NCBI GenBank assembly: GCA_012729375.1
Contig: JAAYDE010000100.1
Span: 10,414-74,413, forward strand
Length of the DNA stretch: 64,000 nt
Direction of reading: 5' to 3'
Source of the DNA: Deltaproteobacteria bacterium
GTDB lineage: Bacteria > Desulfobacterota > Desulfuromonadia > Desulfuromonadales > JAAYDE01
Of this stretch, positions 6,617-54,757 are shown piece by piece. Position 1 is the first letter of the stretch; each line of letters starts with the position of its first letter. The position numbers and the translations under genes are program-made. A model generated the notes under the pieces. That model worked only from the letters and a program-made list of their open reading frames with translations. It searched no databases and was not told the DNA's origin.

Positions 6617-6921
6617 GGTGTCTTGAACCCGCTTCGCTATTTATTGATGGGAGCCCATATCGCTCCGCAAATGCCAGGTCCGCGCGATGGTCACGGATGT
6701 CACTTGCGTCCGAGGAAATTTAACCATTTACTATTCACCGAAGCAAGAATACTTTTTTCTGGAATCCTTTCCCCGGCAAATATTTCGACGAGTGTTCCGG
6801 GGGGAGGCGGAGACCCCGGTGGGATCGTCCGAGCCTTTTATATTGGCAATGGACCGCTGAATTGTGTTAAACCAGTCTGATTTGACAAGAAGTTCAGAAT
6901 CTCGGATGGAGGAAACAAAAG

Positions 6922-7821
6922 ATGAACAAAAAACCGAAAATGGAAACCCGGGCGGGAATGATCGCCAAGGAAATTTTAAAAGAAAACGATGGTGATTGGC
7001 TGCAAACGGCGCTGAAAATGTTTGTCCTGGCCAAGGATGATCATGAACTGATGCGGGAAATCGTCGATCCGATGATCGCTGACAAGGTTTATGAGGCGCT
7101 GGAACGGATCGCGCCCATCAATTTCGGCGGCAAATCCCTTCTGACCTGCCCTCTGACCACCTGCGATTATGCGCTCCTGCGGGATGTGGGCAAGGCGGAG
7201 CTGGACAGGGAGATAGCCTACTTCGAGGAAAATCTCGGCAGAGCTCTGGAAATGGCCGCCTGGTATCATTATGTCATGGCGGCCCTCGACGAAAACCGCA
7301 AGGTCAGGGAGCAGTTTTCCGTTGAGGAGCTGATCCAATTGCGTCAGAAATTCAAGGAGGTCTACCAGGGGAAAATCCAATTTTTCATTTCCGAGTTTCC
7401 CGATCCGATCAAAAAATTGACTCTGGAGGCCGTCCAGAAAAGCCAGGGAGACTGGATGCTGGCCCTGCAGCTGATGACCAAGCGGGTTCTGGAGGATTCC
7501 CAGGCCCTTGCCCACCTGATGGGGCCGTTCTTCTTTTCCGCCCTGTGGCAGGTCTTGCACCAGGCTTCGGAGACGACCCTGGACATGACTCCGCCGATGA
7601 ATTCTCCTCTCACCTCCGGCTGGATCTTCGGGGATTCGACCCGCGCCGAACTGAAAATGGAAGTGATCTACTGGGAAGAATCCGCCCGTTTCCTGCTGCG
7701 CAAGGCCCGCTGGCTGGGTATGATCCGCGATGCCATCGGCGAATCCAAGCGGGTGCACCAGGTTCTCAGTGAAATGCATGTCAAAAAGTTCTGGAACGAT
7801 GCCTATATGTCGGTCAAATAG
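6922..7821 (+). CDS. Hypothetical protein made of two homologous ~150-aa repeats
   Basis: GGAGG RBS, 299-aa ORF with host-like codon usage, visible internal duplication. Confidence 0.7.
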   Translation: MNKKPKMETRAGMIAKEILKENDGDWLQTALKMFVLAKDDHELMREIVDPMIADKVYEALERIAPINFGGKSLLTCPLTTCDYALLRDVGKAELDREIAYFEENLGRALEMAAWYHYVMAALDENRKVREQFSVEELIQLRQKFKEVYQGKIQFFISEFPDPIKKLTLEAVQKSQGDWMLALQLMTKRVLEDSQALAHLMGPFFFSALWQVLHQASETTLDMTPPMNSPLTSGWIFGDSTRAELKMEVIYWEESARFLLRKARWLGMIRDAIGESKRVHQVLSEMHVKKFWNDAYMSVK

Positions 7822-7847
7822 CTTCCACCTGAGGATTCGGGATGTAG

Positions 7848-8933
<1,086 letters not shown>

Positions 8934-8967
8934 CCTCCCCAAAGGGGGCGGCCCTGGGATCATCGCC

Positions 8968-9813
8968 ATGAGAACGCTTTCTTTTCGCACCCCTTTCTGG
9001 CTGCGGCTGCGGTGCAACCGGCTGGCGCTGATGGGTGCGCTCATCGTGGCGGCCATGTTTCTGCTGGCATTGCTGGCGCCGTTGACGGGGCGGGATCCGG
9101 CGGCCATCGACATCGCCGCCGCCCTGTTGCCTCCTTCCTGGCAATATCCCATGGGGACCGACGATCTGGGGCGGGATGTGCTGACCCGCATCCTTTTCGG
9201 CGCCCGCATCTCCCTTCTCGTCGGTTTCGTGTCGGTGGGCATCGCGACCCTGATCGGCATCGTGCTCGGCGCTGTGGCCGGCTATTATGGGTCTTGGGTA
9301 GACGCCCTGATCATGCGTTTCGTCGATGTCATGCTCTGCTTCCCCACCTTCTTCCTTATCCTGGCGGTCATCGCCTTTCTCGATCCCTCCATCTGGAACA
9401 TCATGGCGGTGATCGGCCTGACCGGCTGGATGGGCGTGGCCCGCCTGGTGCGAGCCGAGTTTCTGTCTTTGCGCGAACGGGATTTCGTGCTGGCGGCGCG
9501 GGCGCTGGGAGCCTTTGACATGCGCATCATCTTCCGCCACATCCTGCCCAACGCCCTTTCGCCGGTGCTGGTATCGGCGACCCTGGGGGTGGCCGGGGCG
9601 ATCCTTACCGAAAGCGCTCTTTCCTTTCTCGGCATCGGCGTTCAGCCGCCCACCCCCTCCTGGGGGAACATGCTGATCGTCGGCAAGCAAACCCTCGGTT
9701 CCGCCTGGTGGCTTTCCGCCTTTCCGGGGCTGGCCATCCTGCTGACCGTCCTCGGCTACAATCTGCTGGGGGAGGGCATAAGGGATGCTCTCGATCCCCG
9801 GCTGAACCGATGA
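8968..9813 (+). CDS. Peptide/nickel ABC transporter permease (DppC/OppC family)
   Basis: GTDDLGRDVL, GARISL, EAA-like AARALGA..RIIFRHILPN, LSFLGIGVQPPTPSWG. Confidence 0.92.
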   Translation: MRTLSFRTPFWLRLRCNRLALMGALIVAAMFLLALLAPLTGRDPAAIDIAAALLPPSWQYPMGTDDLGRDVLTRILFGARISLLVGFVSVGIATLIGIVLGAVAGYYGSWVDALIMRFVDVMLCFPTFFLILAVIAFLDPSIWNIMAVIGLTGWMGVARLVRAEFLSLRERDFVLAARALGAFDMRIIFRHILPNALSPVLVSATLGVAGAILTESALSFLGIGVQPPTPSWGNMLIVGKQTLGSAWWLSAFPGLAILLTVLGYNLLGEGIRDALDPRLNR

Positions 9814-41200: not shown

Positions 41201-41571
41201 ACGAGCATTATGCCGATTCGGCCGGCAAGTCGGGCGGGCAGAAGGAAAAACTCGCCTACACCGTGCTGGCCGCCAGCCTGGCCTATCAGTTCGGCCTCGA
41301 ATGGGGGGCGGTCCGGTCGCGCTCCTTCCGCTTCGTGGTCATCGACGAGGCCTTCGGCCGCGGCTCCGACGACTCGGCCCGCTACGGTCTCCAGCTCTTC
41401 GCCCAGCTCAACCTGCAACTGCTCATTGTCACACCCCTGCAGAAGATACACATCATCGAACCTTTTGTTTCCGCCGTCGGCTTTGTCCATAACGAGGACG
41501 GCCGCGCTTCGGTGCTGCGCAACCTGACCATCGAGGAGTACCGGGCCGAAAAGCAAAGGCAGACGGCATGA
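38203..41571 (+). CDS. jetC: Wadjet JetC SMC-like ATPase
   Basis: LNWGTF, Walker [10 protein letters not shown], long coiled coils, signature KSGGQ, Walker B VVIDEAF. Confidence 0.93.
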
Positions 41572-42746
41572 CCTGGACGACGCCGGCCGAGCTGCGCTCC
41601 CAGGTCCAGAAATGGTATGACCGCGGGATCCTGCTGGCGGCCTTGGCCGAAAACGGAGAAGAGTTCCCACGCCGGCTGAATCTCCGGGGTCCGACCTCCC
41701 GTGACCTTGGGGAGCGTTTTGGCGAGGTTCGCGACTGGATTGCGAACCTCCAGGAGGGAGCCAAGTTTTACCGCATCGAGTGGCGCCGCATCCGGCATCG
41801 GGTTCTCGGCGCCAATTCGGTGCCCGCGGAAGTCTGGGTCGATTCCCTGGAAGACGCCCTGGCCATGATCGGCCGCCGCCGGCAGGCGGAGCGTTTTTCC
41901 GACTTGCTGGCAACGACCGCGGAACGCCTCCCGGAGCTGCGCCCCTGGCTGGCCAAGAGGCCCCTCCGGGCCCTGGAACTGGCTGACGATTGGATGCTCC
42001 TTATCGATATCGTAATCTGGCTGCGCCATCATCCGCGGCCCGCAATCTACCTGCGCCAGGTAGACCTTCCCGGAGTGGACAGCAAGTTCATTGAAAGACA
42101 CCGTGGGGTTCTGGCCGAACTTTTCGATCTGGTCCTTCCCTCCGCGGCTGTTGGCGCCGATGCCGGCGGGGTCAGCGGTTTTTGCCGCCGCTACGGCTTC
42201 CGTGACAAGCCGGTGCGGGTGCGGTTGCGCCTCCTCGACCCCGACCTGGCATTGTTCCCCACGGCCACCGATCAGGACATCACGATCACCGCCGACACGT
42301 TTGTCGCCCTGGAAACGGCGGCGACCCGGGTCTTTATCACCGAAAACGAGATCAATTTTCTCGCCTTTCCGCCCGTAAAACAGGGCATGGTTCTGTTCGG
42401 CTCCGGCTACGGCTTTGAAACCCTGGCCGGCGCGGCCTGGCTGCAAAAACGGGAACTCCTTTACTGGGGGGATATCGATACCCACGGTTTTGCCATCCTC
42501 GACCAGTTCCGGGCTTATTTCCCAAACGCCCGCTCCTTTCTCATGGATCGGGAAACCCTGCTGGCCCATCGCCTTTGCTGGGGGAAGGAACCGCAACCCG
42601 AAACCCGGGACCTCAAACGGCTGACGGAGGAGGAGCAGGCCCTCTACGACGATCTGCGCGCCGACCGCCTGGGGTGCCGGCTGCGCCTGGAACAGGAGAA
42701 GATCGGTTTTTCCTGGCTGCAAAGGGCGCTGGCCGATCTGCCTTGA
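41568..42746 (+). CDS. jetD: Wadjet JetD TOPRIM nuclease (DUF3322+DUF2220)
   Basis: [41 protein letters not shown]; ATGA overlap with jetC. Confidence 0.93.
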
Positions 42747-44862: not shown

Positions 44863-45543
44863 TCAAGGCTGGACGTGAACGGTTCCTGCGGCGTCCCAGG
44901 CCTGCTGCCAGAAAGCGATTTCACATTGGATGCCGGCGACGAAGGCGCGGACCGCCTCATCCTGTTCCGCTTTCTCCTTGCCCGGGGCCCAGCGATTCAG
45001 GCACGCGATCCATTGTTCGGCCATTTCCTGCACGGCCGGGTCGGCGTACAGGTCCAGCCAGAGGCGGTAGGGATGGTGCGGGTCGGCGGTGCTTTCCATA
45101 AGCGCCAGCCGCCGCCCCACCTCCGCGTAGAGGACGGTGCAGGGAGTGGCGGCGGCGAGGGCGACCAGTTCCCAGTCATGCCCGACGGCGTCGCTTTCCT
45201 GCTCCATATAGGCTGTCGTGGCGGCCGCGGGGGCTTCATCCACCCAGGGCAACCGGAGCTGCTTGAACAGCTGCTCCTGAATGCCCAGTTCCGCCTCTTC
45301 GGAAATCCCGGCCGAGTATTCGAAAAGAAGCCGATCTTCTTCCGACCGGGCACGGGCGGCGAGGGCCCGGCACACCCGCACGTAATTCCGCAGATACCAA
45401 CCATCCTGAAGCAGATAGTGCTGCATCTGCCTGGGGGTCAAGGCGCCGGCGGCCAGGCCCTTTACGAAGGGATGGGTCGCGGCCTGCTCCCAAAGGGGGC
45501 CGCAGGCCGCCACGCAGCGCTGGTAGAATGATTGCTCAGCCAT
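44863..45543 (-). CDS. tenA: TenA thiaminase II / aminopyrimidine aminohydrolase
   Basis: [17 protein letters not shown] catalytic Cys, HPY..WLDLY, EIAFW. Confidence 0.85.
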
Positions 45544-45581: not shown

Positions 45582-46283
45582 TCAGGGTTTTACGGCGCAC
45601 ACCGCCACGTAGTCGCCGGATTGATAGCCCTCGATCGGGTCTTCCGGGGTGGTATCGGAAAAACAGGGATGGCGGGTCAAAGTCTGCATGAAAGTGAAGC
45701 CGGTGAAGCCGGCTTTCAGAGCGGCGTCGATCTTGTCCTGGGTCGGCCGCCAGTTGGCGCCGCCGGCCAGTTCGACGGGGTAGGGATCCCTGGGCAGAAT
45801 GCCGCGCAGACGGGGATCCTCCCAGGTACCATAGGCGCCGCCAAGGCGGTACAGAATTCCGAACGAACTTTCCGCCGGAACATCGATCAGCAAAACCCTG
45901 CCACCGCTTTTCAGCAGGCGATAGGCTTCGGCGACGGCGGCATCCAGGTCGGCGATGTATCCGGGGGAGCCGTTGAACATGACCGTGTCGTAGGCTCCGT
46001 TTTCCAGGGGCATTTTTTCGGCGCCGGCCGCAACTACCCTCATCCCCCGTTTGCGGGCGATCTCCCCCATGGGCGCGGAAGGTTCCAGACCTTCGCTGAT
46101 GGAGATGCCGTAACGGCTTCGCAGCAACTGTTCAAACAGGCCCGTGCCGCAGCCGACGCTCAAGGTCCGGCCGGGGTTTTCCCCCAAAACCTGGGCCACC
46201 AGCCTGAGTTCTGATTCCAAAACCGTTTCGTTTCTTTGGAACCACGCATCATAGATATCGGAATATTCATCAAAGGTGATCAT
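45582..46283 (-). CDS. Class I SAM-dependent methyltransferase
   Basis: YDAWF, SVGCGTGLFE, GLEPS, AEKMP, AYRLLKSGG. Confidence 0.88.
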   Translation of the reverse strand: MITFDEYSDIYDAWFQRNETVLESELRLVAQVLGENPGRTLSVGCGTGLFEQLLRSRYGISISEGLEPSAPMGEIARKRGMRVVAAGAEKMPLENGAYDTVMFNGSPGYIADLDAAVAEAYRLLKSGGRVLLIDVPAESSFGILYRLGGAYGTWEDPRLRGILPRDPYPVELAGGANWRPTQDKIDAALKAGFTGFTFMQTLTRHPCFSDTTPEDPIEGYQSGDYVAVCAVKP

Positions 46284-46378
46284 CTTCTCTCTCGCGATCA
46301 AAAAAGAAAAAGTAGCAACTGCCTGAAACCACGGTGCCGGCGGCGGCCGGAAGCCGCCCACCAACGAGCCGGTTTGAC

Positions 46379-46407
46379 CTTGTAATTCAGTAAGGTTTTT
46401 CTGTCAA
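46379..46407 (-). promoter_or_regulatory. Candidate sigma-70 promoter for methyltransferase-tenA
   Basis: TTGACA-N17-TACAAG. Confidence 0.45.
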
Positions 46408-46469
46408 CACAAAACCATTCACGAAGGTCGCTTATCGGGAGAGATTGGTCGATCCGGCGGCATCTTCGG

Positions 46470-48182
46470 TCAAAGCAAAAAAGAAATGAAGGAGTACCCC
46501 GAAATCTCGATGTGTTTCACATCGCGGGCGTATGTTGAAAAGAGGATCATGCCGAGTTGCTTGAGCTCTTCCGGGCGGGCATGAAAAAAGCTGTCCGGCA
46601 TGGCGAAATTGTTTATATCGTCCATATGGTGTCCGCAGATCGCTTCGGTGAAATAGCCGTCCTCGGTTTTCGAAATGCGGAAGGTGAGGGAGCATTCCTC
46701 GTCATCCGGTTTTTCGCCGACCATGTAGCAGAACACCTCCTCACAGCACAACGACAGGCGGCTCAGGGTCATGTCGGAGATGGCAAGCTTCTTTTGTCCC
46801 CCTTCCAGGAGGGCTTGGACCTTGGGCAGTTCGTCGATTCGCGCCTGGAATGTTCCCTGTAGACGTTTTTTGGGCGTCAGATAGGCCACCGTGCTCAGGA
46901 ACAGGGCGGTGAAGCCGCCGATGGCAACGCTGTTTTGGAGTACCGGGGCCAGGGTGTCCGGCACGACGCCGGGAAAGTAGGTTCCGCTTTCGGCGACCAG
47001 TCCGACGGTCAATGAAAGACCGAGGATGAGGCCGTGCTGGTTGTCGAAGCGGTTCATGGTCACCAGACCGATGCCGGCATGGAAGAGCAGAGAAACAATA
47101 ACGATGAGGAACCCGCCCATAACGGGCGGCGGCATGTCGAGAATGATGGCGCTGACCTTGGGCATGAAGGCCAGCAGCAGGAGAATCCCGGCGCCGCAGG
47201 TGCCGATACGCCGGGAAGCGACGCCGGTGATGTGGATGAGCGGCAGGTTGTCGCAATAGAGGGAGGGTACGGCGGTGCCGAAAAGACCCCCGGCAATCTT
47301 GCTCAGACCGTCGCAGTAGAGCCCCGCCTGCACCTGATTGTAGGCGACCCGCCGAAAATCGCGGTTGGAGAGCTGTTGCACCAGCATCAGGTTGCCGGTG
47401 TTTTCGATCATGCTGGCCATCATGGCCATGGCGAAGGCGAAAACCAGCGGCAGATGCTGGGAGGTGATGTTGAACTCGATTCCCGGCCAGGCCATCGGCG
47501 GCAATCCGAACCAGGGGGCGCGCAGGGTGTGTTCGAAATGGGTCTGCCCCGCCAGAAAGGCGGCGCCGTAACCTGTCGCCAGGGAGAGGATGGGACTCCA
47601 CAGTTTCAGCTTCGTCGAGCCGAAAAGCATGAACAGGGTCAGGGTCAGCGCGGTCAATCCGCCGATAGCGAGTTTGGCGAGGGTCATCTGCTTCGAGCCG
47701 CCGGCGGGACCGGCCCATATCTCCAGGGCGATGGGCACCATGGAGACAGCGATAAGCAGGATGACGACCCCGCCCACGGCCGGGGTGATGATGTGGCGGA
47801 AAAAACGGATGAAAAAGGTGTAGAGAAAAATGATGGGAACGGTGAGCAGGGTCATGGCGGCCAGGGTGCCGAAGCCCCCCATCTTCACCGCGTCCAGGGA
47901 ACAGATCAGGAAGGCGCTGTAGGAACCGGTGAAGAGGATGAAGCCCGCGCCGATGCCGAATTGCCGGCGGCTTTGCAGATAGGTGAAGGCGGCGGCGATG
48001 AGAATGATGGCGAAGGTGGTGAATTGCAGGGTGTCGGGGGCCAGGGCGAGGGTCTTGCCGAGCACGTTGGGGATGAAAATGATGCCGTCGAAGATGACCA
48101 GCACATGGGTGAGAGCCAGCGCCATGGAAAGCAAAAGGGGTGGATTTTCGTTGACATCGTATTTCAGTTCGCTGTTCTGCAT
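46470..48182 (-). CDS. NCS2 (uracil/xanthine) permease fused to a C-terminal RsbW-like HATPase domain
   Basis: YDVNENPP start, multiple TM segments, PAVGGVVILLIA, APWFGLP, TGVASRR, PPVMGG; extra ~135-aa soluble tail at 46470-46877. Confidence 0.85.
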   Translation of the reverse strand: MQNSELKYDVNENPPLLLSMALALTHVLVIFDGIIFIPNVLGKTLALAPDTLQFTTFAIILIAAAFTYLQSRRQFGIGAGFILFTGSYSAFLICSLDAVKMGGFGTLAAMTLLTVPIIFLYTFFIRFFRHIITPAVGGVVILLIAVSMVPIALEIWAGPAGGSKQMTLAKLAIGGLTALTLTLFMLFGSTKLKLWSPILSLATGYGAAFLAGQTHFEHTLRAPWFGLPPMAWPGIEFNITSQHLPLVFAFAMAMMASMIENTGNLMLVQQLSNRDFRRVAYNQVQAGLYCDGLSKIAGGLFGTAVPSLYCDNLPLIHITGVASRRIGTCGAGILLLLAFMPKVSAIILDMPPPVMGGFLIVIVSLLFHAGIGLVTMNRFDNQHGLILGLSLTVGLVAESGTYFPGVVPDTLAPVLQNSVAIGGFTALFLSTVAYLTPKKRLQGTFQARIDELPKVQALLEGGQKKLAISDMTLSRLSLCCEEVFCYMVGEKPDDEECSLTFRISKTEDGYFTEAICGHHMDDINNFAMPDSFFHARPEELKQLGMILFSTYARDVKHIEISGYSFISFLL

Positions 48183-48235
48183 GGTCTGCGGTTTCTCTTT
48201 TTATCCTTGCCTTGAAAAACATTCGTCGGCCGTGA

Positions 48236-48568
48236 TTACCCTTCGATCTCCGCCAGATTCTCCACAATGGTGAACATGGACTGAAATCCGGAGATTTTAA
48301 AGACCTCCTTCACCATGCCGGAAAGACCGCAAAAGCGCAGGTTTCCTCCTTTTCCCCTGAGTTTTTTGGCGGCGGAAAGGATGCTGCGCAGCCCGGCAGA
48401 GCTGATGTAGTCCAAGGCGGAGAGCTCGGCGACGATGTCGATTTTCCCCTTCTGCATCAGTGCCTGGCAGGTTTTTTCAAAATCAGGTGCGGTAACCGCG
48501 TCCATCCTCCCGGTGACGGTAACCAGCGTCAGGTTTCCCTTTTCTTGGCAGCCCATGGTTAGACTCAT
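48236..48568 (-). CDS. STAS anti-sigma-factor antagonist (SpoIIAA/RsbV-like)
   Basis: GRMDAVTAPDFE, LDYISSAGLRSIL, VKEVFKISGF; AAGGA RBS; 110 aa. Confidence 0.92.
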   Translation of the reverse strand: MSLTMGCQEKGNLTLVTVTGRMDAVTAPDFEKTCQALMQKGKIDIVAELSALDYISSAGLRSILSAAKKLRGKGGNLRFCGLSGMVKEVFKISGFQSMFTIVENLAEIEG

Positions 48569-48677
48569 TGTTTTTTCCTTTCTCTGTGTTTCCAAAATAT
48601 GGGACGGCAGGCATGGTCTTAACGTTCGATGGCGCCGCTCCATCGGCAAAAATGTTGATGGTGCGGCGAACTCTGGT

Positions 48678-48706
48678 AACATACTGGCGAGGTTGTCAAC
48701 TTGCAA
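48678..48706 (-). promoter_or_regulatory. Candidate sigma-70 promoter for the STAS-permease pair
   Basis: TTGCAA-N17-TATGTT, about 110 bp upstream of the STAS ATG. Confidence 0.45.
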
Positions 48707-48749
48707 CCCGTCTCTTCCGTGAAGGCCGGCACGGTCCATCTGTTGACCG

Positions 48750-49982
48750 CTACAGCAGCAAGGCGGCCACGGCGCCGGTCATGCAGGCGGCGAGCGTGCC
48801 GGACAAAAGGGAACGCAGGCCCAGGGCGACGATTTCCTGGCGGCGCTGCGGAGCCATGGCCCCCATGCCGCCGATCATGATGCCCAGGCTCCCCGGGTTG
48901 GCAAATCCGCAGAGGGCGTAACTCATCACCACCAGGCTCTTTGGGCTCAAAGCTTCCGGCGCGAGTTGGGACATCTGCAGATAGGCGACGAATTCGTTGA
49001 CCATGGTTTTTACCCCGAGAAGAGATCCGGCGGTCATCGTTTCCCGCCAGGGAATGCCGATCAGCCAGGTGACCGGCGCGAAGAGTAATCCCGCCAGCCT
49101 CTCCAGCGTCATTGGTGCGCCGGTCCAGGGGAGGATTCCCAGGATCAGGTTGATCAACTCCACCAGGGCGACCATGACAATCATCATGGCGACGATATGG
49201 ATGAGCAGCTGCACCCCCTGCGCCGTGCCCTGGGTGATGGCGTCCATGCTGCCGTTGACCCCGGTTTCCGGCTCCAGGGCGCCGTCGGTGACCGGATTCT
49301 GCTCGGGGACCATGACCTTGGCGATCAGCACCGCCGCCGGGGCACTGATCAGCGAGGCGGTCAGGATATGCCCCATGATGTTGGGAACCAGGCCTTTGAG
49401 CAGGGTGGCGTAGAGCACCATCACCGTGCCGGCAATCGTCGCCATGCCCGTGGTCATCAGGGTGAAGAGCTCGCTGCGGGTCATCTTCTGCAGGTAGGGG
49501 CGGATGAACAGGGGGGATTCGACCATGCCCACGAAGATGTTGGCGGCCACTCCCAGGCCTTCGGCTCCCCCCAGGGACAAGGTTTTGCGCAGGCACAGGG
49601 AAAAGAAATTGACGATGCGCGGCAGGACGTTCCAGTAAAAGAGCAGGGAAGAGAGGGCACTGATCAAAAGGACCATGGGCAATCCGCGAAAGGCGAGAAG
49701 GTAGGCGGCGCCGGAGAAAGGTTCGGGAAAGGGCAGGGGGCCGCCGCCGAGATAGCCGAAGACGACGGTGGTGCCGGCTTTGGTTGCCTTTTCGAGGATG
49801 GTCACGGCGGAATTGAGCCACAGAAAAGCGGTCTGGAAAATCTCCAGATTGAGCAACAGGAAAGCGGTCACGAACTGCAGGGCCAGGCCCGTGGCCACCA
49901 CCTTCCAGGGAAAACGTTTCCGGTTTTCACTGAAAAGCCAGGCGATAAGGATAAAAACGATCAACCCGCAAAGACTCTGCAC
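48750..49982 (-). CDS. nupC: Concentrative nucleoside transporter (CNT/NupC)
   Basis: FSENRK, ANIFVGMVESPL, GMATIAG, NEFVAY, YALCGFAN. Confidence 0.9.
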   Translation of the reverse strand: MQSLCGLIVFILIAWLFSENRKRFPWKVVATGLALQFVTAFLLLNLEIFQTAFLWLNSAVTILEKATKAGTTVVFGYLGGGPLPFPEPFSGAAYLLAFRGLPMVLLISALSSLLFYWNVLPRIVNFFSLCLRKTLSLGGAEGLGVAANIFVGMVESPLFIRPYLQKMTRSELFTLMTTGMATIAGTVMVLYATLLKGLVPNIMGHILTASLISAPAAVLIAKVMVPEQNPVTDGALEPETGVNGSMDAITQGTAQGVQLLIHIVAMMIVMVALVELINLILGILPWTGAPMTLERLAGLLFAPVTWLIGIPWRETMTAGSLLGVKTMVNEFVAYLQMSQLAPEALSPKSLVVMSYALCGFANPGSLGIMIGGMGAMAPQRRQEIVALGLRSLLSGTLAACMTGAVAALLL

Positions 49983-50009: not shown

Positions 50010-50468
50010 TTAAAGAAACCGCCGAAAGGCGGGGAAGTTTTCCCCGAGGTTCCTGGTCAGGTCGGGACAATCGGTCAAAAAATTGAAATCCTCGAACTCG
50101 AAACCGGGCGCCACGGTACACCCCACCAAGCTGTAGTCCCCCAGCGATTCCGCGGCCTGGAAAAGGCCTCCCTCCACCACTGCGGCGTAACCGGTGCCTG
50201 GTCCAAGAATCCGCTGTTGAATTCCCGTTCCGTCAAAGGACACCAGGCGCAGGGGTGATCCCTCGTAAAAATTCCAGATTTCGTCATGGCGGAGCCTGTG
50301 AAAGCGGCTGACTTCCCCCTGTAAAAGCAGAAAGTAGATATGGGTCACCGCCTGGCGTCGGAGCCCCGTTGCCGGGGCATCCACCGCTTGCCGGGAACAG
50401 TGGATCCGCTTGAAATATCCTCCTTCCGGGTGCGGGGCCAAACCATAACTGCGGATCAGTTTGTGCAC
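50010..50468 (-). CDS. DUF985 cupin protein
   Basis: HPEGGYF, THIYFLL, FHRL..DEIW, GCTVAPGFEFEDF; GTG start after AGGAG. Confidence 0.88.
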   Translation of the reverse strand: MHKLIRSYGLAPHPEGGYFKRIHCSRQAVDAPATGLRRQAVTHIYFLLLQGEVSRFHRLRHDEIWNFYEGSPLRLVSFDGTGIQQRILGPGTGYAAVVEGGLFQAAESLGDYSLVGCTVAPGFEFEDFNFLTDCPDLTRNLGENFPAFRRFL

Positions 50469-50832
50469 GGTTTTTCTTTCTCCTGGATTTTGGCGCCGCA
50501 ACGGAATCCGGAAAGGCGTTCCGGCAGGCTGTCAAAAAAAACGGCACCTTTGGCCCTTAGAGGGTCGCTCGGGTTTTCCAAATGCCCACAGATCTTTTTA
50601 ACCGCTCGCTGGAGATGCTGAAGGGAGGGTAACTCTTCGCCGGTCAATAATCAAGAAGGAGAGCCCGGCGGGATCAAGAGTCTCTTTCATCCCCCCGAAA
50701 AAAACCTGTTTTGGAAAGATTTGCCGGTGTCGTGAAAAATTTTTGAAACGTGCCATAATTAAAGACAAAGAGTCCTCAACCGGGGATATTCCCGTTTCCG
50801 CCAAAGCGTTCAACCATGAAAGGAGGTAAACC

Positions 50833-51156: not shown

Positions 51157-51461
51157 GCCTCTTTTTATTTCCCAAAATTAGCTCCTTCCTTGATTTTGCC
51201 CGGCCTGATTTTGCCAGAGAGACCCTTCCGGGTCTTTTTTTTTGTTTTACGGCCACAGGGCTTCGATCCTTTCGCATAAAAAGAAAAAGAACCTGTGTTG
51301 AGATCACACAAGAACAGAGTATAATAAATACTCCAATGTTTTCGTATGATTACATGTTTGGTCAAGAAAAGCAGGCACCTTGGCCGGGTTTCAGCGGCCG
51401 TTCTCAGGCGCCGGGCCTGTCTTGGCGGTGGGAAATTCTAAACAACCTTCGGGAGGATGGC

Positions 51462-52262
51462 ATGGCGGAAAGAAACACCCTGGAACTGCCTTCGGCCCTG
51501 AGCCATTTCTATCGGCTCTGGGCCGCTTCAGATGCCCGCAACGTGGCGGTTTTCCTCGACTACGACGGTACCCTGACGCCGATTGTTGAGCGTCCGGAAA
51601 TGGCCCTGCTGGCGCCGAACATGAAGGACGCGGTGCGTCTTGTCGCCTCCAGGGCGACGGTGGCGGTGATCAGCGGGCGGGATCTGCAGGATGTGCGCAA
51701 CCTGGTCGGCCTGGAGGAGATCTGCTATGCCGGCAGTCATGGTTTCGACATCTATCGGCCTGGCGGCGAACGGATCGAACTGGAAGACGGGAAACGATAC
51801 CTTGCCGATCTCGACGCCGCCCAACGGAAACTGGAAGAGCGGTTTGCCGGCATCGAAGGCAGCCAGGTGGAAAGGAAGAAGTACGCCCTCGCCGTTCACT
51901 ACCGGCGGGTTCTTCCCGCCGTGGCGGAGTCGGTTCGCCGCATTTTCGATGAGGTGGCCTCCTCGTTCCCCCGTTTGCGCACCACGGGCGGCAAAAAGGT
52001 TTACGAACTGCGTCCGGACGTCGATTGGCACAAGGGTAAGGCGGTGGCCTATCTGCTGAAGGTCCTCGGTCTCGATCACGCCGGGGTGATGCCTCTCTAC
52101 ATCGGCGACGATCTGACCGACGAGGATGCTTTTGTGGAACTGAAAAATCACGGCGTGGGGATTGTCGTACGGGATGAAGCACGGCCGACGGCGGCGCGTT
52201 TTTCCCTAATCGATATCGATGAGGTGCGCCGTTTCCTGGAAAATCTGGCGGTCATTTTGTGA
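51462..52262 (+). CDS. otsB: Trehalose-6-phosphate phosphatase
   Basis: FLDYDGTL, ISGR, GSHG, HYR, ELRP..HKG, GDDLTDEDAF. Confidence 0.92.
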   Translation: MAERNTLELPSALSHFYRLWAASDARNVAVFLDYDGTLTPIVERPEMALLAPNMKDAVRLVASRATVAVISGRDLQDVRNLVGLEEICYAGSHGFDIYRPGGERIELEDGKRYLADLDAAQRKLEERFAGIEGSQVERKKYALAVHYRRVLPAVAESVRRIFDEVASSFPRLRTTGGKKVYELRPDVDWHKGKAVAYLLKVLGLDHAGVMPLYIGDDLTDEDAFVELKNHGVGIVVRDEARPTAARFSLIDIDEVRRFLENLAVIL

Positions 52263-52273
52263 GGAGGGCGCCC

Positions 52274-54757
52274 ATGGAAGGTCAAGCGCCGGACACCTGG
52301 TCGCTGGTTTACGAGGGTTTCGACGCCCAAGGGGAAGGCCTGCGGGAGACCCTCTGCACCCTGGGAAACGGTTATTTCGCCACCCGCGGTGCGGCTCCGG
52401 AAAGCGCGGCGGACGGCATACGCTATCCCGCCACCTATGTGGCCGGGGCCTACAACCGGCTGCGGACAGAACTCTCGGGGATGATGGTCGAAAACGAGGA
52501 TCTGGTCAATTTCCCCAACTGGGTGCGGATGAGATTCCGCATCGAGGGCGGTGATTGGTTCGATCCGATGAACACGGAACTTCTCCACTATCGCCAGGAA
52601 CTGGACATGCGGCGCGGCATTCTGCTGCGCTGCATCCGTTTCCGAGATGGCGCCGGACGGGTCACCTCCCTCCACGAACGGCGCCTGGTTCATCAGAAGT
52701 GGCCCCATCTCGGTGCTCAATCCCTGGTCCTTGCCGCCGAGAACTGGGCCGGCGAGGTGGAATTTGAATCGGCCCTGGACGGCAGGGTGGCCAACACCGG
52801 AGTGGAGCGTTACCGCCGGCTCAGCAACGTCCACCTGGTTCCCCTGGGAAACAGCTTCCCCCATGAACGCATCCTGTGCCTCAAGGTCCACACCAGCCAA
52901 TCGGGGATCACCGTGGCCCAGGGGATGAGAACCCGGGTTTTCAGCAATGGGGAAGATTCAGCTGTGACGCTGCAGAGGGTCGATGCGCCCGGTTTCGCCG
53001 CGCACCGTTTCTGTTTGCGTTTGCAAGCCGGAGAAGAGACCCGGGTCGAAAAGGTTGTTTCCCTGTTTACCTCCCGGGACCGGGCCATCGCCGAGTGCGG
53101 CGAGGCGGCCGTGCTCGCGGTTTCGCGGGCCGCCGATTTCGAGGAACTCGCCGATCACCAGGAGCGCGCCTGGAGACATCTCTGGAGTCGCTTTGCCATC
53201 GATGTGGAGGGGAACGGTCCGCAGACGGTGATGATTCTGCGCCTGCATCTGTTTCATCTCCTGCAGACGGTATCGATCCACGCCATCGATCTGGATGCCG
53301 GGGTGCCGGCGCGGGGGTGGCACGGGGAGGCCTATCGCGGCCATATCTTCTGGGATGAACTCTTCATCATGCCGCTGTTCAACCTGCGTTTTCCGGAGAT
53401 CACCAGGGCCTTGCTCCGCTACCGTTTCCGGCGCCTCGACGAAGCGCGCACCAACGCCCGCGAGGCCGGTTTCCGGGGAGCCATGTTCCCCTGGCAGAGC
53501 GGCAGCAGCGGCCGGGAGGAGAGCCAGAAAATCCACCTCAACCCCCGTTCGGGACGCTGGCTGCCCGACAATTCCAACCTGCAGCGCCACGTCAATCTGG
53601 CCATCGCCTGCAACATCTGGCAGTACTACCAGGTGACCCGCGACGTGGAGTTCATGGCTTTCTGCGGCGCCGAGATGATTTTCGAGATCGCCCGCTTTTT
53701 CTGCAGCGCCGCCCATTACAATCCGGCCCTCGACCGCTGGGAAATCCACGGTGTGATGGGGCCCGACGAATACCATGACGATTATCCGGGCAAACAGGGG
53801 GAGGGGCTCAACAACAACGCCTATACCAACCTGATGACGGTCTGGCTGCTGTGCCGGGCGCTGGAACTGGTGGAGATTCTTCCCGAGGACCAGCGCGCCG
53901 CTCTTGGCGACGCCATTGATCTGCAACCGCGGGAAATCGCCGTATGGGAGGAGATCAGCCGCAAGATGCGCATCGTCTTCCACGGCGACGGCATCATCAG
54001 CCAGTTCGAGGGCTATGACCAGCTGGCGGAGTTTGATTGGGAAAAATACCGCGGGCGCTATGGAGAGGTGATGCGGCTCGATCGCATCCTGGAGGCGGAA
54101 GGGGACACCCCCAACCGTTACAAACTGTCCAAGCAGGCCGACGTGCTGATGCTCTTCTACCTGTTCTCGAACACCGAGCTGGAATCCCTCTTCGAGCGGC
54201 TCGGCTATCCTTTCGACGAGGGGATGGTCAAACGCAATACTGATTATTACCTCTACCGCACCTCCCACGGCTCCACCCTGAGCCAGCTGGTCCACTCCTG
54301 GGTACTGGCCCGCTCGGACCGGGACCGCTCCTGGAAGCTTTTCATCCGCGCCTTGGAAAGCGACGTCCGCGATGTCCAGGGGGGCACCACCCCCGAGGGG
54401 ATTCACCTGGGCGCCATGGCCGGAACCGTCGACCTGGTGCAGCGCTGCTACCTGGGCATCGAAACCCGCGAGGACGTCCTCTGGTTCGATCCCTGCCTGC
54501 CCGATGAACTCAAACGCCTGACCCTGCGCCTGCTTTACCGCGGCCAGCTTCTGGAGGTGGAATGCACCCAGGAACGGATCGCCATACAGGCCCTGCGCAA
54601 CGGCCTGGCGCCTTCGGTCCGCATCGGTTTCGGCGGCGAAACCTTTGACCTTGGCGGCGGCAGGACTCTGCACTTCGCGCTGCCCGCCGCCACCTCGGCC
54701 TGCGTGCCCGCTTTCAGCGGGCGAGGACGAACCCGCCGTCGCGGACCTCGACCATGA
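52274..54757 (+). CDS. GH65 trehalose/maltose phosphorylase-hydrolase family protein
   Basis: LGNGYFATRG, ARGWHGEAYRGHIFWDE, GPDEYH, KQADVLML, GIHLGAMAG. Confidence 0.92.
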   Translation: MEGQAPDTWSLVYEGFDAQGEGLRETLCTLGNGYFATRGAAPESAADGIRYPATYVAGAYNRLRTELSGMMVENEDLVNFPNWVRMRFRIEGGDWFDPMNTELLHYRQELDMRRGILLRCIRFRDGAGRVTSLHERRLVHQKWPHLGAQSLVLAAENWAGEVEFESALDGRVANTGVERYRRLSNVHLVPLGNSFPHERILCLKVHTSQSGITVAQGMRTRVFSNGEDSAVTLQRVDAPGFAAHRFCLRLQAGEETRVEKVVSLFTSRDRAIAECGEAAVLAVSRAADFEELADHQERAWRHLWSRFAIDVEGNGPQTVMILRLHLFHLLQTVSIHAIDLDAGVPARGWHGEAYRGHIFWDELFIMPLFNLRFPEITRALLRYRFRRLDEARTNAREAGFRGAMFPWQSGSSGREESQKIHLNPRSGRWLPDNSNLQRHVNLAIACNIWQYYQVTRDVEFMAFCGAEMIFEIARFFCSAAHYNPALDRWEIHGVMGPDEYHDDYPGKQGEGLNNNAYTNLMTVWLLCRALELVEILPEDQRAALGDAIDLQPREIAVWEEISRKMRIVFHGDGIISQFEGYDQLAEFDWEKYRGRYGEVMRLDRILEAEGDTPNRYKLSKQADVLMLFYLFSNTELESLFERLGYPFDEGMVKRNTDYYLYRTSHGSTLSQLVHSWVLARSDRDRSWKLFIRALESDVRDVQGGTTPEGIHLGAMAGTVDLVQRCYLGIETREDVLWFDPCLPDELKRLTLRLLYRGQLLEVECTQERIAIQALRNGLAPSVRIGFGGETFDLGGGRTLHFALPAATSACVPAFSGRGRTRRRGPRP

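What the first reader, a model, noticed from the sequence alone, without database searches (positions are those of the whole stretch)
46470..48568. Nucleobase permease fused to an anti-sigma-like domain, paired with a STAS anti-anti-sigma protein: a candidate transporter-coupled partner-switching system
Seen: the NCS2 permease continues past its last TM helix into a ~135-aa soluble tail (TFQARIDELPKVQALL...LSLCCEEVFCYM...KQLGMILFSTYARDVKHIE). By eye this follows the RsbW/SpoIIAB HATPase pattern, but the N-box Asn (EEVFCY), the DxG motif and the GGxG lid are lost. Directly upstream on the same strand, 53 bp away and with its own candidate promoter, is a stand-alone STAS protein retaining the phospho-acceptor motif DYISSAGLR. 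Known: RsbW/RsbV pairs form partner-switching modules, and NCS2 shares its fold with SLC26/SulP transporters, which carry STAS domains. Inference: the permease may be a transceptor whose pseudo-kinase tail docks the STAS protein, either gating transport by STAS phosphorylation state or signalling substrate flux. I do not know a characterised NCS2 of this architecture. The neighbours (nupC, cupin, methyltransferase, tenA) fit a nucleoside/pyrimidine-salvage context.
Basis: partly seen in the sequence, partly recalled or inferred. Interest (0 to 1): 0.82.

Follow-up and report, generated by a model that had tools for sequence, protein, structure and literature searches.

The report
Nucleobase-type permease with dead RsbW tail
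A membrane transporter of the nucleobase/ascorbate family carries at its inner end a kinase-dead copy of the bacterial anti-sigma protein RsbW, and in this genome the matching small STAS protein is encoded right in front of it, suggesting a transporter that docks a signalling protein.

Summary
Window 46470-48182(-) encodes a 570-aa NCS2 permease. Its last ~138 residues have no Pfam hit of their own, but they are homologous to RsbW/SpoIIAB-type HATPase_c_2 domains. The evidence is a profile-profile match (99.4%, E 1.3e-21) and an AF2 model whose Foldseek matches listed with E<=1e-3 are all RsbW/UsfX/SpoIIAB chains. The fusion is a conserved family: all 59 aligned members carry PF00860. None of the 59 keeps the N-box Asn, and the G1 and G2 glycines are gone. 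It is therefore an ancient pseudokinase. A 110-aa STAS gene with an intact phospho-acceptor loop lies 53 bp upstream. A complex prediction places that loop on the tail's invariant Glu-Glu/Leu-Gly surface (0.82 against best control 0.01), but similar complexes are solved, so the model may be recalling them. STAS adjacency is confined to the window's genus. Elsewhere it recurs only as DUF4325 in one genus and as a STAS-N protein in one metagenome locus. The nucleoside-salvage neighbours are not conserved. My best reading is a kinase-dead RsbW tail that docks unphosphorylated STAS on the transporter. Whether docking controls transport or signals outward is unknown. I found no description in print in five searches.

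The parts
46470..48182 (-). Gene for the 570-aa NCS2/SLC23-type permease with a C-terminal RsbW-like tail (P0001)
   Evidence: ORF. PF00860 E 2.3e-38. The full-length AF2 model (pLDDT 84) best matches UapA, SVCT1 and UraA, then SLC26 and SLC4. All 59 aligned homologues carry PF00860.
46878..48182 (-). Transmembrane (7+7) permease domain, residues 1 to ~435
   Evidence: Aligns to UraA over residues 9-437 (E 6e-14) and to SVCT1 and UapA. The last membrane helix is H418-435 in the model. Where UraA has ENIGVMAITR, this protein has DNLPLIHITG, so the substrate cannot be assigned.
46470..46886 (-). Cytoplasmic tail, residues 433-570: a kinase-dead RsbW/SpoIIAB-type (HATPase_c_2-like) domain. About 4 residues link it to TM14.
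   Evidence: AF2 pLDDT 81, pTM 0.78. Foldseek top hits are UsfX, RsbW and SpoIIAB (E 2e-6, TM 0.63-0.68). hhalign against PF13581 proteins gives 99.4%. The profile of 13 tails finds stand-alone proteins, and 9 of 10 sampled carry PF13581. The first strand of the tail starts at residue 440.
46722..46757 (-). N-box remnant LSLCCEEVFCYM (residues 476-487). The Glu-Glu pair is kept and the Mg-ATP Asn is replaced by Tyr486.
   Evidence: Aligns to LAxEExFVNI of stand-alone RsbW-like proteins, in which the Asn is invariant. None of 59 family members has Asn at this position. E481 and E482 make the most confident predicted contacts with STAS S56 and S57.
46539..46568 (-). G2-box remnant ELKQLGMILF (residues 539-548). 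Only the last Gly of the canonical GGLG is kept.
   Evidence: L540, L543 and G544 are invariant or nearly invariant and lie in the predicted STAS interface.
48236..48568 (-). Gene for a stand-alone 110-aa STAS protein of the SpoIIAA/RsbV type (P0002), 53 bp upstream of the permease
   Evidence: PF01740 1.4e-18 and TIGR00377 2e-23, above cut-off. A GAAAGGA motif lies before the ATG, and the scan lists no terminator-like site on the minus strand between the STAS stop and the permease ATG. The same STAS-permease pair is present in the sister genome G170.
48386..48412 (-). STAS phospho-acceptor loop DYISSAGLR (residues 53-61)
   Evidence: Sequence. Y54-R61 is invariant in 44 homologues. Residues 53-54, 56-58 and 60-61 are in the predicted interface.

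Best explanation
The gene encodes a divergent NCS2 (SLC23-type) secondary transporter. A few residues after TM14, its cytoplasmic C-terminus continues into a kinase-dead RsbW/SpoIIAB-type domain.

Shown here:
- The tail is homologous to HATPase_c_2 anti-sigma Ser kinases and is predicted to have their fold.
- The fusion is an old, conserved family.
- Every member examined lacks the N-box Asn and the G1 and G2 glycines needed to bind Mg-ATP.
- What stays invariant is the Glu-Glu of the N-box helix and the Leu-Gly of the G2 helix.

Inferred:
- This conserved surface is kept because it docks the phospho-acceptor loop of an unphosphorylated STAS protein. The STAS encoded 53 bp upstream is probably co-transcribed with the permease.
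- The tail cannot phosphorylate STAS itself. Binding would be switched off by a kinase acting in trans and switched on again by a PP2C phosphatase. Candidates in this genome are the dCache-HAMP-PP2C-HATPase_c_2 sensor on contig C17 and the GAF-PP2C/STAS/RsbW module on C92.
- A phosphate on Ser57 would face the two invariant glutamates and should expel the STAS.
- The STAS would sit where the fused STAS domain of the structurally related SLC26/SulP transporters sits, after TM14. This makes it a non-covalent, switchable equivalent.

Open: whether docking changes transport, or whether the transporter's state titrates STAS away from its soluble partners. In relatives without an adjacent STAS gene, the partner would be one of the STAS proteins encoded elsewhere.
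For: 1. Homology and fold. hhalign of A2 vs A3 gives 99.4%, E 1.3e-21, 136 columns. The profile of 13 tails against 1.84 billion representatives gives 180 hits at E<=1e-3. Below the fused permeases these are ~135-aa proteins, and 9 of 10 sampled carry PF13581. PF13581 itself hits 13 of 59 family members at E<=0.01, best 6.8e-11. The profile against PDB sequences ranks UsfX and RsbW first (E 0.03-0.065). Foldseek matches listed with E<=1e-3 are all RsbW/UsfX/SpoIIAB chains.

2. Pseudokinase. None of 59 members has the N-box Asn, and G1 and G2 are degenerate.

3. Real, conserved fusion. 46 proteins at >=54% identity. 25 full-length 50%-identity cluster representatives among the 150 listed. 13 of 401 sampled genomes of the phylum. 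51 metagenome loci.

4. STAS docking. Complex score 0.82/0.82/0.81 against a best control of 0.01. The mark was reached by 58 of 80 solved complexes and 2 of 110 mismatched pairs. The runs share >=95% of contacts and the partner pLDDT is >=89. The interface uses tail L20, L46, E49, E50, L108, L111 and G112, which are invariant or nearly invariant in A2. It also uses STAS Y54 and S56-A58, which are invariant in A4.

5. Genomic link.
- STAS and permease are the only pair conserved between G000 and G170. tenA, the methyltransferase, nupC and the cupin are absent from the 9.7-kb G170 locus.
- The other five STAS domains of G000 each lie within 3 kb of a canonical PF13581 domain.
- In five other genomes the closest P0002 homologues each sit next to a canonical PF13581 gene. 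In four of the six places the order is STAS then RsbW, the order seen here as STAS then tail-bearing permease.
- Other STAS-fold genes lie beside the permease in one genus (DUF4325, 3 genomes) and in locus L066 (STAS-N 410 aa).

6. Precedent. In M. smegmatis the anti-SigF RsbW1 lacks kinase activity, and its STAS antagonist RsfB is phosphorylated by a separate RsbW2 that keeps the N, G1 and G2 motifs (PMC7693655, passages read).
Against: - STAS adjacency is the exception in the family. No PF01740 match lies within 5 kb of the permease in any of the 10 other genomes. The nearest are 6.4, 13 and 16 kb away. Only 1 of 51 metagenome loci has a STAS ORF, found with an A4-based HMM and 14 further STAS/DUF4325 queries. 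L002 and L003 have none.
- No neighbour is conserved in more than 6 of 65 loci.
- In two of the three genomes of that genus, the DUF4325 gene comes with its own weak HATPase_c_2-like ORF, so it may not need the tail.
- SpoIIAB-SpoIIAA, RsbW-RsbV and UsfX-RsfB complexes are solved (they appear). The high complex score may therefore reflect likeness to known structures, and only one STAS was tried.
- The invariant Glu-Glu/Leu-Gly residues are also conserved in active kinases, so their retention is not specific proof of a docking role.
- Nothing here measures binding, ATP binding or transport.
Confidence: 0.55

Rival explanations
1. The tail is a structural or allosteric appendage with no STAS partner. 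For example, it could be a dimerisation module under the dimeric transporter (RsbW/SpoIIAB proteins are dimers and NCS2 transporters are dimers; recalled knowledge). Or its degenerate nucleotide pocket could sense a cytoplasmic metabolite. On this reading the adjacent STAS gene in this genus is a lineage-specific coincidence.
For: Most family members have no STAS gene nearby, and no neighbour is conserved. The short linker of about 4 residues to TM14 fits a rigid appendage. The complex prediction may be recalled from solved RsbW-STAS structures (caveat).
Against: STAS-fold genes recur beside the permease in three separate lineages, each with a different STAS type. STAS and permease are the only conserved pair between G000 and G170. 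The family-wide invariant residues coincide with the predicted STAS interface. P0002 is the only STAS in the genome with no canonical RsbW domain nearby.
Confidence: 0.25
2. The tail is a membrane-tethered anti-sigma, or anti-activator, domain. It would sequester a transcription factor at the membrane, and STAS would displace it. That would make a full partner-switching circuit whose input is the transporter's state, in other words a transceptor.
For: The closest structural relatives are anti-sigma factors caught with sigma factors or STAS antagonists (8jzt, 1l0o, 8ih8). Kinase-dead RsbW1/UsfX still acts as an anti-sigma factor (PMC7693655, passages). A sigma-54 activator with no regulatory domain lies directly downstream of the permease in 6 loci.
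Against: No sigma-factor gene is linked to the locus in the window (Pfam of neighbours). The sigma-54 activator neighbour occurs in only 6 of 65 loci. No target was tested.
Confidence: 0.12
3. The tail is still an active Ser kinase with non-canonical motifs (His or Tyr in place of the N-box Asn) and phosphorylates the adjacent STAS protein.
For: The catalytic-base Glu is retained (E482 is invariant). The STAS Ser57 is positioned against it in the model.
Against: None of 59 members has Asn. The G1 DxG is absent and two of the three G2 glycines are lost. RsbW homologues that cluster with anti-sigma factors lacking kinase activity did not phosphorylate STAS in vitro, whereas RsbW2, which keeps the N, G1 and G2 motifs, did (PMC7693655, passages).
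Confidence: 0.05

Closest known systems
RsbW / SpoIIAB / UsfX anti-sigma factors (Pfam HATPase_c_2, PF13581) with their STAS antagonists RsbV / SpoIIAA / RsfB
   Same: Same predicted fold and demonstrable sequence homology. A STAS gene lies immediately upstream, as in canonical STAS-RsbW pairs. The predicted interface centres on the STAS phospho-acceptor loop and the N-box and G2 helices. Kinase-dead members that rely on a separate kinase are known (RsbW1 and RsbW2 of M. smegmatis, PMC7693655).
   Different: The domain is fused to the C-terminus of a 14-TM permease instead of being a soluble ~140-aa protein. All three ATP motifs are degenerate across the whole family. There is no linked sigma factor. 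Pfam's model does not detect the window's copy.
SLC26/SulP anion transporters with a fused C-terminal STAS domain
   Same: They share the 7+7 inverted-repeat membrane fold. SLC26 chains are the next-best structural matches after SLC23, and the abstract of PMC6497670 states the shared architecture (listing). In both cases a cytoplasmic regulatory domain follows TM14 and a STAS fold is involved.
   Different: Here the membrane domain is PF00860, not PF00916. The fused domain is the binding partner of STAS, not a STAS domain. STAS is a separate protein that could be switched on and off. The same genome also has an ordinary SulP-STAS protein on contig C17.
Characterised NCS2/NAT transporters (UraA, UapA, XanQ/PbuX, SVCT1)
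   Same: PF00860 match, alignment across all 14 TM segments, and best structural matches.
   Different: Scores fall below the NCBIfam pbuX and ncs2 cut-offs. The segment aligned to the UraA signature motif reads DNLPLIHITG. There are ~135 extra C-terminal residues. The substrate is unknown.
MlaB, the stand-alone STAS subunit of the MlaFEDB ABC transporter (recalled, not examined here)
   Same: A small STAS-only protein serving as an accessory subunit of a transporter. P0002 gives a weak NCBIfam mlaB_1 hit (E 0.084, far below cut-off).
   Different: MlaB binds an ABC ATPase, not an RsbW-like domain, and P0002 is a SpoIIAA/RsbV-type STAS (TIGR00377 above cut-off).

Membership tests
NCS2/NAT (SLC23) permeases, PF00860 | Match to the family profile above the curated cut-off | tested here: met
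   PF00860 132.4 bits against a cut-off of 27. All 59 homologues match.
NCS2/NAT (SLC23) permeases, PF00860 | 14-TM 7+7 inverted-repeat fold | tested here: met
   The AF2 model (pLDDT 84) best matches UapA, SVCT1 and UraA (E 1e-16 to 1e-11, TMt 0.62-0.78). This is a predicted structure, not a solved one.
NCS2/NAT (SLC23) permeases, PF00860 | NAT signature motif [Q/E/P]-N-x-G-x-x-x-x-T-[R/K/G] in TM10 (motif recalled from the literature) | tested here: inconclusive
   The segment aligned to UraA's ENIGVMAITR is DNLPLIHITG. N, T and the final G fit; the first position is D and the G is P.
NCS2/NAT (SLC23) permeases, PF00860 | Membership of a substrate-defined subfamily (xanthine pbuX, uracil, RutG) | tested here: not met
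   All NCBIfam subfamily and equivalog scores fall below their cut-offs (208.7 vs 414; 69.9 vs 477; 48.6 vs 758).
RsbW/SpoIIAB-type anti-sigma Ser kinases (HATPase_c_2, PF13581) | Sequence homology to the family | tested here: met
   hhalign 99.4%, E 1.3e-21. The tail profile retrieves PF13581 proteins. PF13581 hits 13 of 59 family members at E<=0.01. The window's own tail is not detected by the Pfam model.
RsbW/SpoIIAB-type anti-sigma Ser kinases (HATPase_c_2, PF13581) | Bergerat (GHKL) alpha/beta fold | tested here: met
   AF2 model with pLDDT 81. Foldseek matches listed with E<=1e-3 are all RsbW/UsfX/SpoIIAB chains, followed by SiaB, the Rv1364c RsbW domain and histidine-kinase CA domains.
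RsbW/SpoIIAB-type anti-sigma Ser kinases (HATPase_c_2, PF13581) | N-box Asn that binds Mg-ATP | tested here: not met
   The position is Tyr486 here and His/Tyr/Phe/Leu in the other 58, so 0 of 59 have Asn. Asn is invariant in 15 stand-alone relatives.
RsbW/SpoIIAB-type anti-sigma Ser kinases (HATPase_c_2, PF13581) | G1 (DxG) and G2 (GGxG) nucleotide-binding boxes | tested here: not met
   The G1 D and G are not aligned to D and G. G2 is reduced to xxLG.
RsbW/SpoIIAB-type anti-sigma Ser kinases (HATPase_c_2, PF13581) | Binds a STAS antagonist | tested here: inconclusive
   The complex prediction scores 0.82 against a best control of 0.01. Similar complexes are solved, so this supports likeness and does not show binding.
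RsbW/SpoIIAB-type anti-sigma Ser kinases (HATPase_c_2, PF13581) | Binds and inhibits a sigma factor | not tested
   No candidate sigma factor is linked to the locus.
Partner-switching system (STAS / RsbW / PP2C / output) | STAS protein with a conserved phosphorylatable Ser | tested here: met
   DYISSAGLR is present. S56 and S57 are invariant in 44 homologues. TIGR00377 scores above cut-off.
Partner-switching system (STAS / RsbW / PP2C / output) | Cognate Ser kinase and PP2C phosphatase | tested here: inconclusive
   Neither is in the locus. The genome encodes candidates elsewhere: a dCache-HAMP-SpoIIE-HATPase_c_2 protein on C17, and GAF-SpoIIE plus RsbW on C92. The C17 kinase domain is the closest G000 homologue of the RsbWs paired with P0002 homologues in other genomes. 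Which of them acts on P0002 is unknown.
Partner-switching system (STAS / RsbW / PP2C / output) | Defined output (a sigma factor or other target released by the switch) | not testable with these tools
   The output would be transport activity or an unknown partner.
SLC26/SulP-STAS transporters | Sulfate_transp (PF00916) membrane domain with a fused STAS domain | tested here: not met
   P0001 matches only PF00860, and the tail is an RsbW-like domain, not a STAS domain. This is an analogy, not membership.

The most novel reading that the evidence does not exclude
The permease is a transceptor. Its kinase-dead RsbW tail competes with soluble RsbW kinases for one STAS protein, so the transporter's conformational or occupancy state sets how much free STAS enters the cell's partner-switching network, and STAS phosphorylation in turn gates transport. 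It would be a non-covalent, phosphorylation-switchable counterpart of the fused STAS domain of SLC26 transporters. It would also show that transporters of the 7+7 fold have been coupled to STAS signalling twice, from opposite sides of the same protein-protein interface.
Probability: 0.2. Interest if true: 0.85.

Novelty: new variant of a known kind. Interest (0 to 1): 0.64.

Why it matters
Partner-switching modules (STAS, RsbW, PP2C) are known mainly as regulators of sigma factors and of a few other soluble targets. STAS domains on transporters are known only as covalent parts of SLC26/SulP.

An NCS2 transporter that carries the binding partner of STAS would link these two fields. It would give a direct test of whether STAS proteins can regulate, or be regulated by, a 7+7-fold transporter in trans.

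It also adds a clear case of a bacterial GHKL pseudokinase kept under selection. The family is conserved: 25 full-length cluster representatives at 50% identity among the 150 listed, and 13 of 401 sampled genomes of the phylum. The substrate of this divergent NCS2 clade, which occurs in anaerobic-digester and sludge bacteria, is unknown.

I found no description of the architecture in the open literature searched.

Tried and rejected
- Direct Pfam and PDB sequence searches with the tail alone gave nothing useful.
- The single-protein locus scan of genome contigs returned only 4 loci. Whole-genome searches and the metagenome scan were more useful.
- The Rfam scan of the whole window found no riboswitch or other RNA family (0 matches). 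A TPP or purine riboswitch does not explain the cluster.
- The promoter and terminator scan found no sigma-70-like site upstream of the STAS gene. The number of terminator-like sites was not above the shuffled expectation (13 against 10.2).
- I considered conserved-neighbour clustering as a route to the substrate. No neighbour is shared by more than 6 of 65 loci, so I dropped it.
- I considered thiamine-pyrimidine or nucleoside salvage as the functional context, because TenA and nupC are neighbours. I rejected it as a conserved feature, because none of tenA, the methyltransferase, nupC or the cupin is found in the sister genome's locus.
- RNA evidence is uninformative. Only short contigs inside the permease gene occur in two metatranscriptome runs (X17, X20) and in two runs that are probably DNA (X15, X16). 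None bridges the STAS-permease junction. They are contigs and cannot show transcripts.
- The ESM Atlas feature search gave only a weak lead (HATPase_c_2 in 15% of members of the rank-2 cluster, score 0.92). I do not use it as evidence.
- Whether P0003 and P0004 (71% tails) also have an adjacent STAS could not be checked. Their contig lengths (50526 and 11006) equal those of the STAS homologues P0199 and P0200.
- I could not see Supplementary Figure S5 of PMC7693655, which clusters kinase-negative anti-sigma factors, because supplements are closed.


Full report
**1. What is in the window**

On the minus strand there is a run of genes:
- Cupin_5, 50010-50501
- the nucleoside transporter nupC, 48750-49982
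- a 110-aa STAS gene, 48236-48568
- a 570-aa permease, 46470-48182
- a class-I methyltransferase, 45582-46364
- TenA, 44863-45543

The permease matches PF00860 over residues 20-396 (E 2.3e-38). It aligns to the NCBIfam pbuX and ncs2 models as far as residue 431, but scores below their cut-offs. It aligns to UraA over residues 9-437, and to SVCT1 and UapA.

The STAS protein matches PF01740 (1.4e-18). It scores above cut-off for TIGR00377, the anti-sigma factor antagonist model. It contains DYISSAGLR.

The gap between the STAS stop codon and the permease ATG is 53 bp. The scan lists no terminator-like site on the minus strand within it. The STAS gene has a GAAAGGA motif ahead of its ATG.

**2. 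The tail is a real, conserved domain**

Residues 433-570 alone have no useful Pfam hit or PDB sequence hit. The evidence that the tail is nonetheless a conserved domain fused to the permease is:
- A word-based search over the tail found 46 proteins at 54-100% identity. All carry PF00860, and most are ~570 aa long. Those that carry names are from Desulfovibrionaceae-type organisms.
- Whole-genome searches found the tail in 2 of 233 genomes of the window's own order, both in its genus.
- They found it in 13 of 401 sampled genomes of the phylum. Most of those matches are 29-35% identical and sit at the end of 570-600-aa reading frames.
- A profile of 13 diverse tails (A2), scored against 1.84 billion representatives, gave 180 hits at E<=1e-3 and 62 at E<=1e-10. 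Of the 150 listed, 25 are full-length proteins of 570-594 aa with the match at about residues 435-575.
- All 59 aligned full-length members carry PF00860.

The fusion is therefore not an assembly or frameshift artefact.

**3. The tail is a kinase-dead RsbW domain**

The AF2 model of the tail has pLDDT 81 and pTM 0.78. Its element order is beta-alpha-alpha-beta-beta, then short helices, then beta-beta.

- Foldseek against the PDB gave 18 matches at E<=1e-3. Every listed chain among them is an RsbW, UsfX or SpoIIAB anti-sigma factor (best E 2.3e-6, TM 0.63-0.68). SiaB, the RsbW domain of Rv1364c and histidine-kinase CA domains follow.
- The A2 profile against PDB sequences also ranks UsfX (E 0.033 and 0.036) and B. 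subtilis RsbW (E 0.065) first.
- Below the fused permeases, the large profile search finds ~135-aa proteins at E 1e-8 to 1e-4. Nine of the ten I sampled carry PF13581 HATPase_c_2.
- hhalign between A2 and an alignment of 15 such proteins (A3) gives probability 99.4%, E 1.3e-21, over 136 columns.
- PF13581 itself hits 13 of the 59 family members at E<=0.01, best 6.8e-11.

The alignments place the tail's L-x-C-E-E-V-F-x-(H/Y) on the N-box L-A-x-E-E-x-F-V-N.
- The Asn is invariant in A3. In the fused family that position is His, Tyr, Phe or Leu, so 0 of 59 members have Asn.
- The G1 DxG has no counterpart in the tail.
- The G2 I-G-G-L-G is reduced to x-x-L-G.

The loss is as old as the family.

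**4. Link to STAS: evidence for**

(a) Genomic context.
- The genome has six STAS domains and five PF13581 domains above cut-off.
- These sit in a GAF-PP2C/STAS/RsbW module on C92, an RsbR/S/T-like cluster on C120, and a C17 locus with a dCache-HAMP-SpoIIE-HATPase_c_2 protein, a STAS-N protein and a SulP-STAS transporter.
- The window's STAS is the only one with no canonical PF13581 domain nearby. What follows it is the tail-bearing permease.
- In five other genomes that carry the fused permease, the closest homologues of this STAS (42-55% identity) each sit next to a canonical PF13581 gene. In four of those six places the order is STAS then RsbW.
- G000 has no stand-alone orthologue of those RsbWs. 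Their best match in G000 is the kinase domain of the C17 sensor, at 33-36% identity.

(b) The sister genome.
- In G170 the STAS (68% identical) and the permease (78%) are again adjacent.
- None of tenA, the methyltransferase, nupC or the cupin is present in the 9.7-kb locus.
- The conserved unit is therefore the STAS-permease pair.

(c) Recurrence in other lineages.
- Three genomes of one other genus carry a DUF4325 (STAS-like) gene 0-0.9 kb downstream of the permease. A 900-bp indel accounts for the difference in distance.
- One metagenome locus (L066) has a divergently transcribed 410-aa protein with an N-terminal STAS domain next to the permease.

(d) Complex prediction.
- The tail with the STAS protein scored 0.82, 0.82 and 0.81, against a best control of 0.01.
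- The mark was reached by 58 of 80 solved complexes and 2 of 110 mismatched pairs.
- The runs agree in at least 95% of contacts, and the partner's pLDDT is at least 89.
- The most confident contacts pair tail E49 and E50 (E481 and E482 of the protein) with STAS S56 and S57.
- The interface includes tail L20, L46, L108, L111 and G112, which are the family's invariant or nearly invariant residues. It also includes STAS Y54 and S56-A58, which are invariant in 44 homologues.
- RsbW-RsbV, SpoIIAB-SpoIIAA and UsfX-RsfB complexes are solved. The pass therefore shows likeness to a known interface, not that this pair binds.

**5. Link to STAS: evidence against**

- In the ten other genomes with the fused permease, no PF01740 match lies within 5 kb of it. 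The nearest are 6.4 kb (G401), 13 kb (G273) and 16 kb (G348) away.
- Of 51 metagenome loci, fifty have the tail in a permease-type frame or fragment, and L090 is a 461-aa non-permease. Only L066 has a STAS ORF. I searched with an HMM built from A4 and with 14 further STAS and DUF4325 queries.
- L002 and L003 have none.
- Clustering of all neighbouring ORFs shows no partner shared by more than 6 of 65 loci.
- In G240 a weak HATPase_c_2-like ORF lies between the permease and the DUF4325 gene. That STAS-like protein may have its own partner.

This argues against a dedicated two-gene system across the family. It does not argue against docking of STAS proteins encoded elsewhere, since all ten genomes have several.

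**6. How it most likely works**

Shown here: the homology and predicted fold of the tail, the family-wide loss of its ATP motifs, and the intact phospho-acceptor loop of the STAS protein.

From established knowledge (recalled):
- Both ends of NCS2 transporters are cytoplasmic.
- TM14 belongs to the gate (dimerisation) domain.
- The STAS domain of SLC26 follows TM14 in the same fold.

The shared 7+7 architecture is stated in the abstract of PMC6497670 (listing). It is also seen here, with SLC26 chains as the next-best matches after SLC23. In the full-length model (pLDDT 84) the last membrane helix ends at residue 435 and the first strand of the tail starts at 440. The tail is therefore held close to the membrane domain.

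Inferred:
- The tail docks unphosphorylated STAS.
- A phosphate on Ser57 would face the two invariant glutamates and release the STAS.
- The kinase and phosphatase act in trans.

This division of labour has a precedent. In M. smegmatis only RsbW2, which keeps the N, G1 and G2 motifs, phosphorylates the STAS protein RsfB. RsbW1 and RsbW3 cluster with anti-sigma factors that lack kinase activity (PMC7693655, passages read).

It remains open whether docking regulates transport or reports the transporter's state. I put 0.55 on the docking model. For the rivals I put 0.25 on a STAS-independent structural or allosteric tail, 0.12 on a tethered anti-sigma or anti-activator, and 0.05 on a still-active kinase.

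**7. Comparison and novelty**

- The membrane domain is a member of NCS2, but of no subfamily with a defined substrate.
- The tail is a homologue of PF13581. It fails the catalytic features that define the kinase, so it should be called RsbW-like or a pseudokinase, not an RsbW kinase.
- The protein is not a SulP/SLC26 transporter. The resemblance is functional analogy on a shared membrane fold.

Five full-text searches found no paper describing an NCS2 or xanthine permease with an RsbW/HATPase_c_2 domain or with a STAS partner. A review of STAS-only proteins, of which I read passages, mentions transporters only in connection with SLC26/SulP (PMC8256260).

I rate this a new variant of a known kind and give it an interest of 0.64. 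The architecture is solidly established and unexpected. Its functional meaning rests on inference and on a complex prediction that may be recalled from solved structures.

Noticed in passing
window 41568-42746 (+): A 392-aa protein with DUF3322 and JetD_C domains (E 3.6e-60 and 2.3e-56). This is JetD of a Wadjet anti-plasmid system, and the other jet genes probably lie upstream.
   Followed up: partly
window 51336-52262 (+) and 52259-54757 (+): A trehalose-phosphatase gene overlaps the start of a GH65 glycoside hydrolase/phosphorylase gene. This looks like a trehalose or maltose-type metabolism pair unrelated to the finding.
   Followed up: partly
L020:7117-8184 (+), and L045, L047, L049, L051, L071: A sigma-54 activator made only of the AAA+ and HTH_8 domains, with no N-terminal regulatory domain (355 aa), lies directly downstream of the fused permease in 6 of 65 loci. 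Activators of this kind are usually controlled by a partner protein.
   Followed up: no
L030:571-1890 (-), L090:1339-2724 (+), P0158, P0197: A second family of ~435-460-aa proteins has an N-terminal domain that matches the tail profile or, weakly, PF13581. The rest of the protein has no Pfam hit. In L030 the gene sits directly downstream of a STAS gene.
   Followed up: partly
G273:C8:384580-384990 (L020/L007): The tail of this genome's fused permease contains one in-frame TAG, so the ORF ends at 534 aa. It may be a pseudogene, a sequencing error or a read-through.
   Followed up: no
G000 contig C17 (L038:1538-3955, 5789-7039, 7336-9237): The same genome encodes an 805-aa dCache-HAMP-SpoIIE-HATPase_c_2 sensor, a 416-aa protein with an N-terminal STAS domain and an otherwise unassigned remainder, and an ordinary SulP-STAS transporter, all within 8 kb.
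   Followed up: partly
L028:3786-4732 compared with L025: A ~900-bp indel between species of one genus removes two small ORFs, one a weak HATPase_c_2 match. This brings the DUF4325 gene directly behind the permease in G282.
   Followed up: yes
window 46300-48800: Near-identical DNA (>=0.75 of the sampled words) is held by 14 runs from 9 studies of sludge, biogas-fermenter, bioreactor, landfill, activated-sludge and soil metagenomes and one coded organism. Six of these runs (2 studies) may be the source of this DNA.
   Followed up: no
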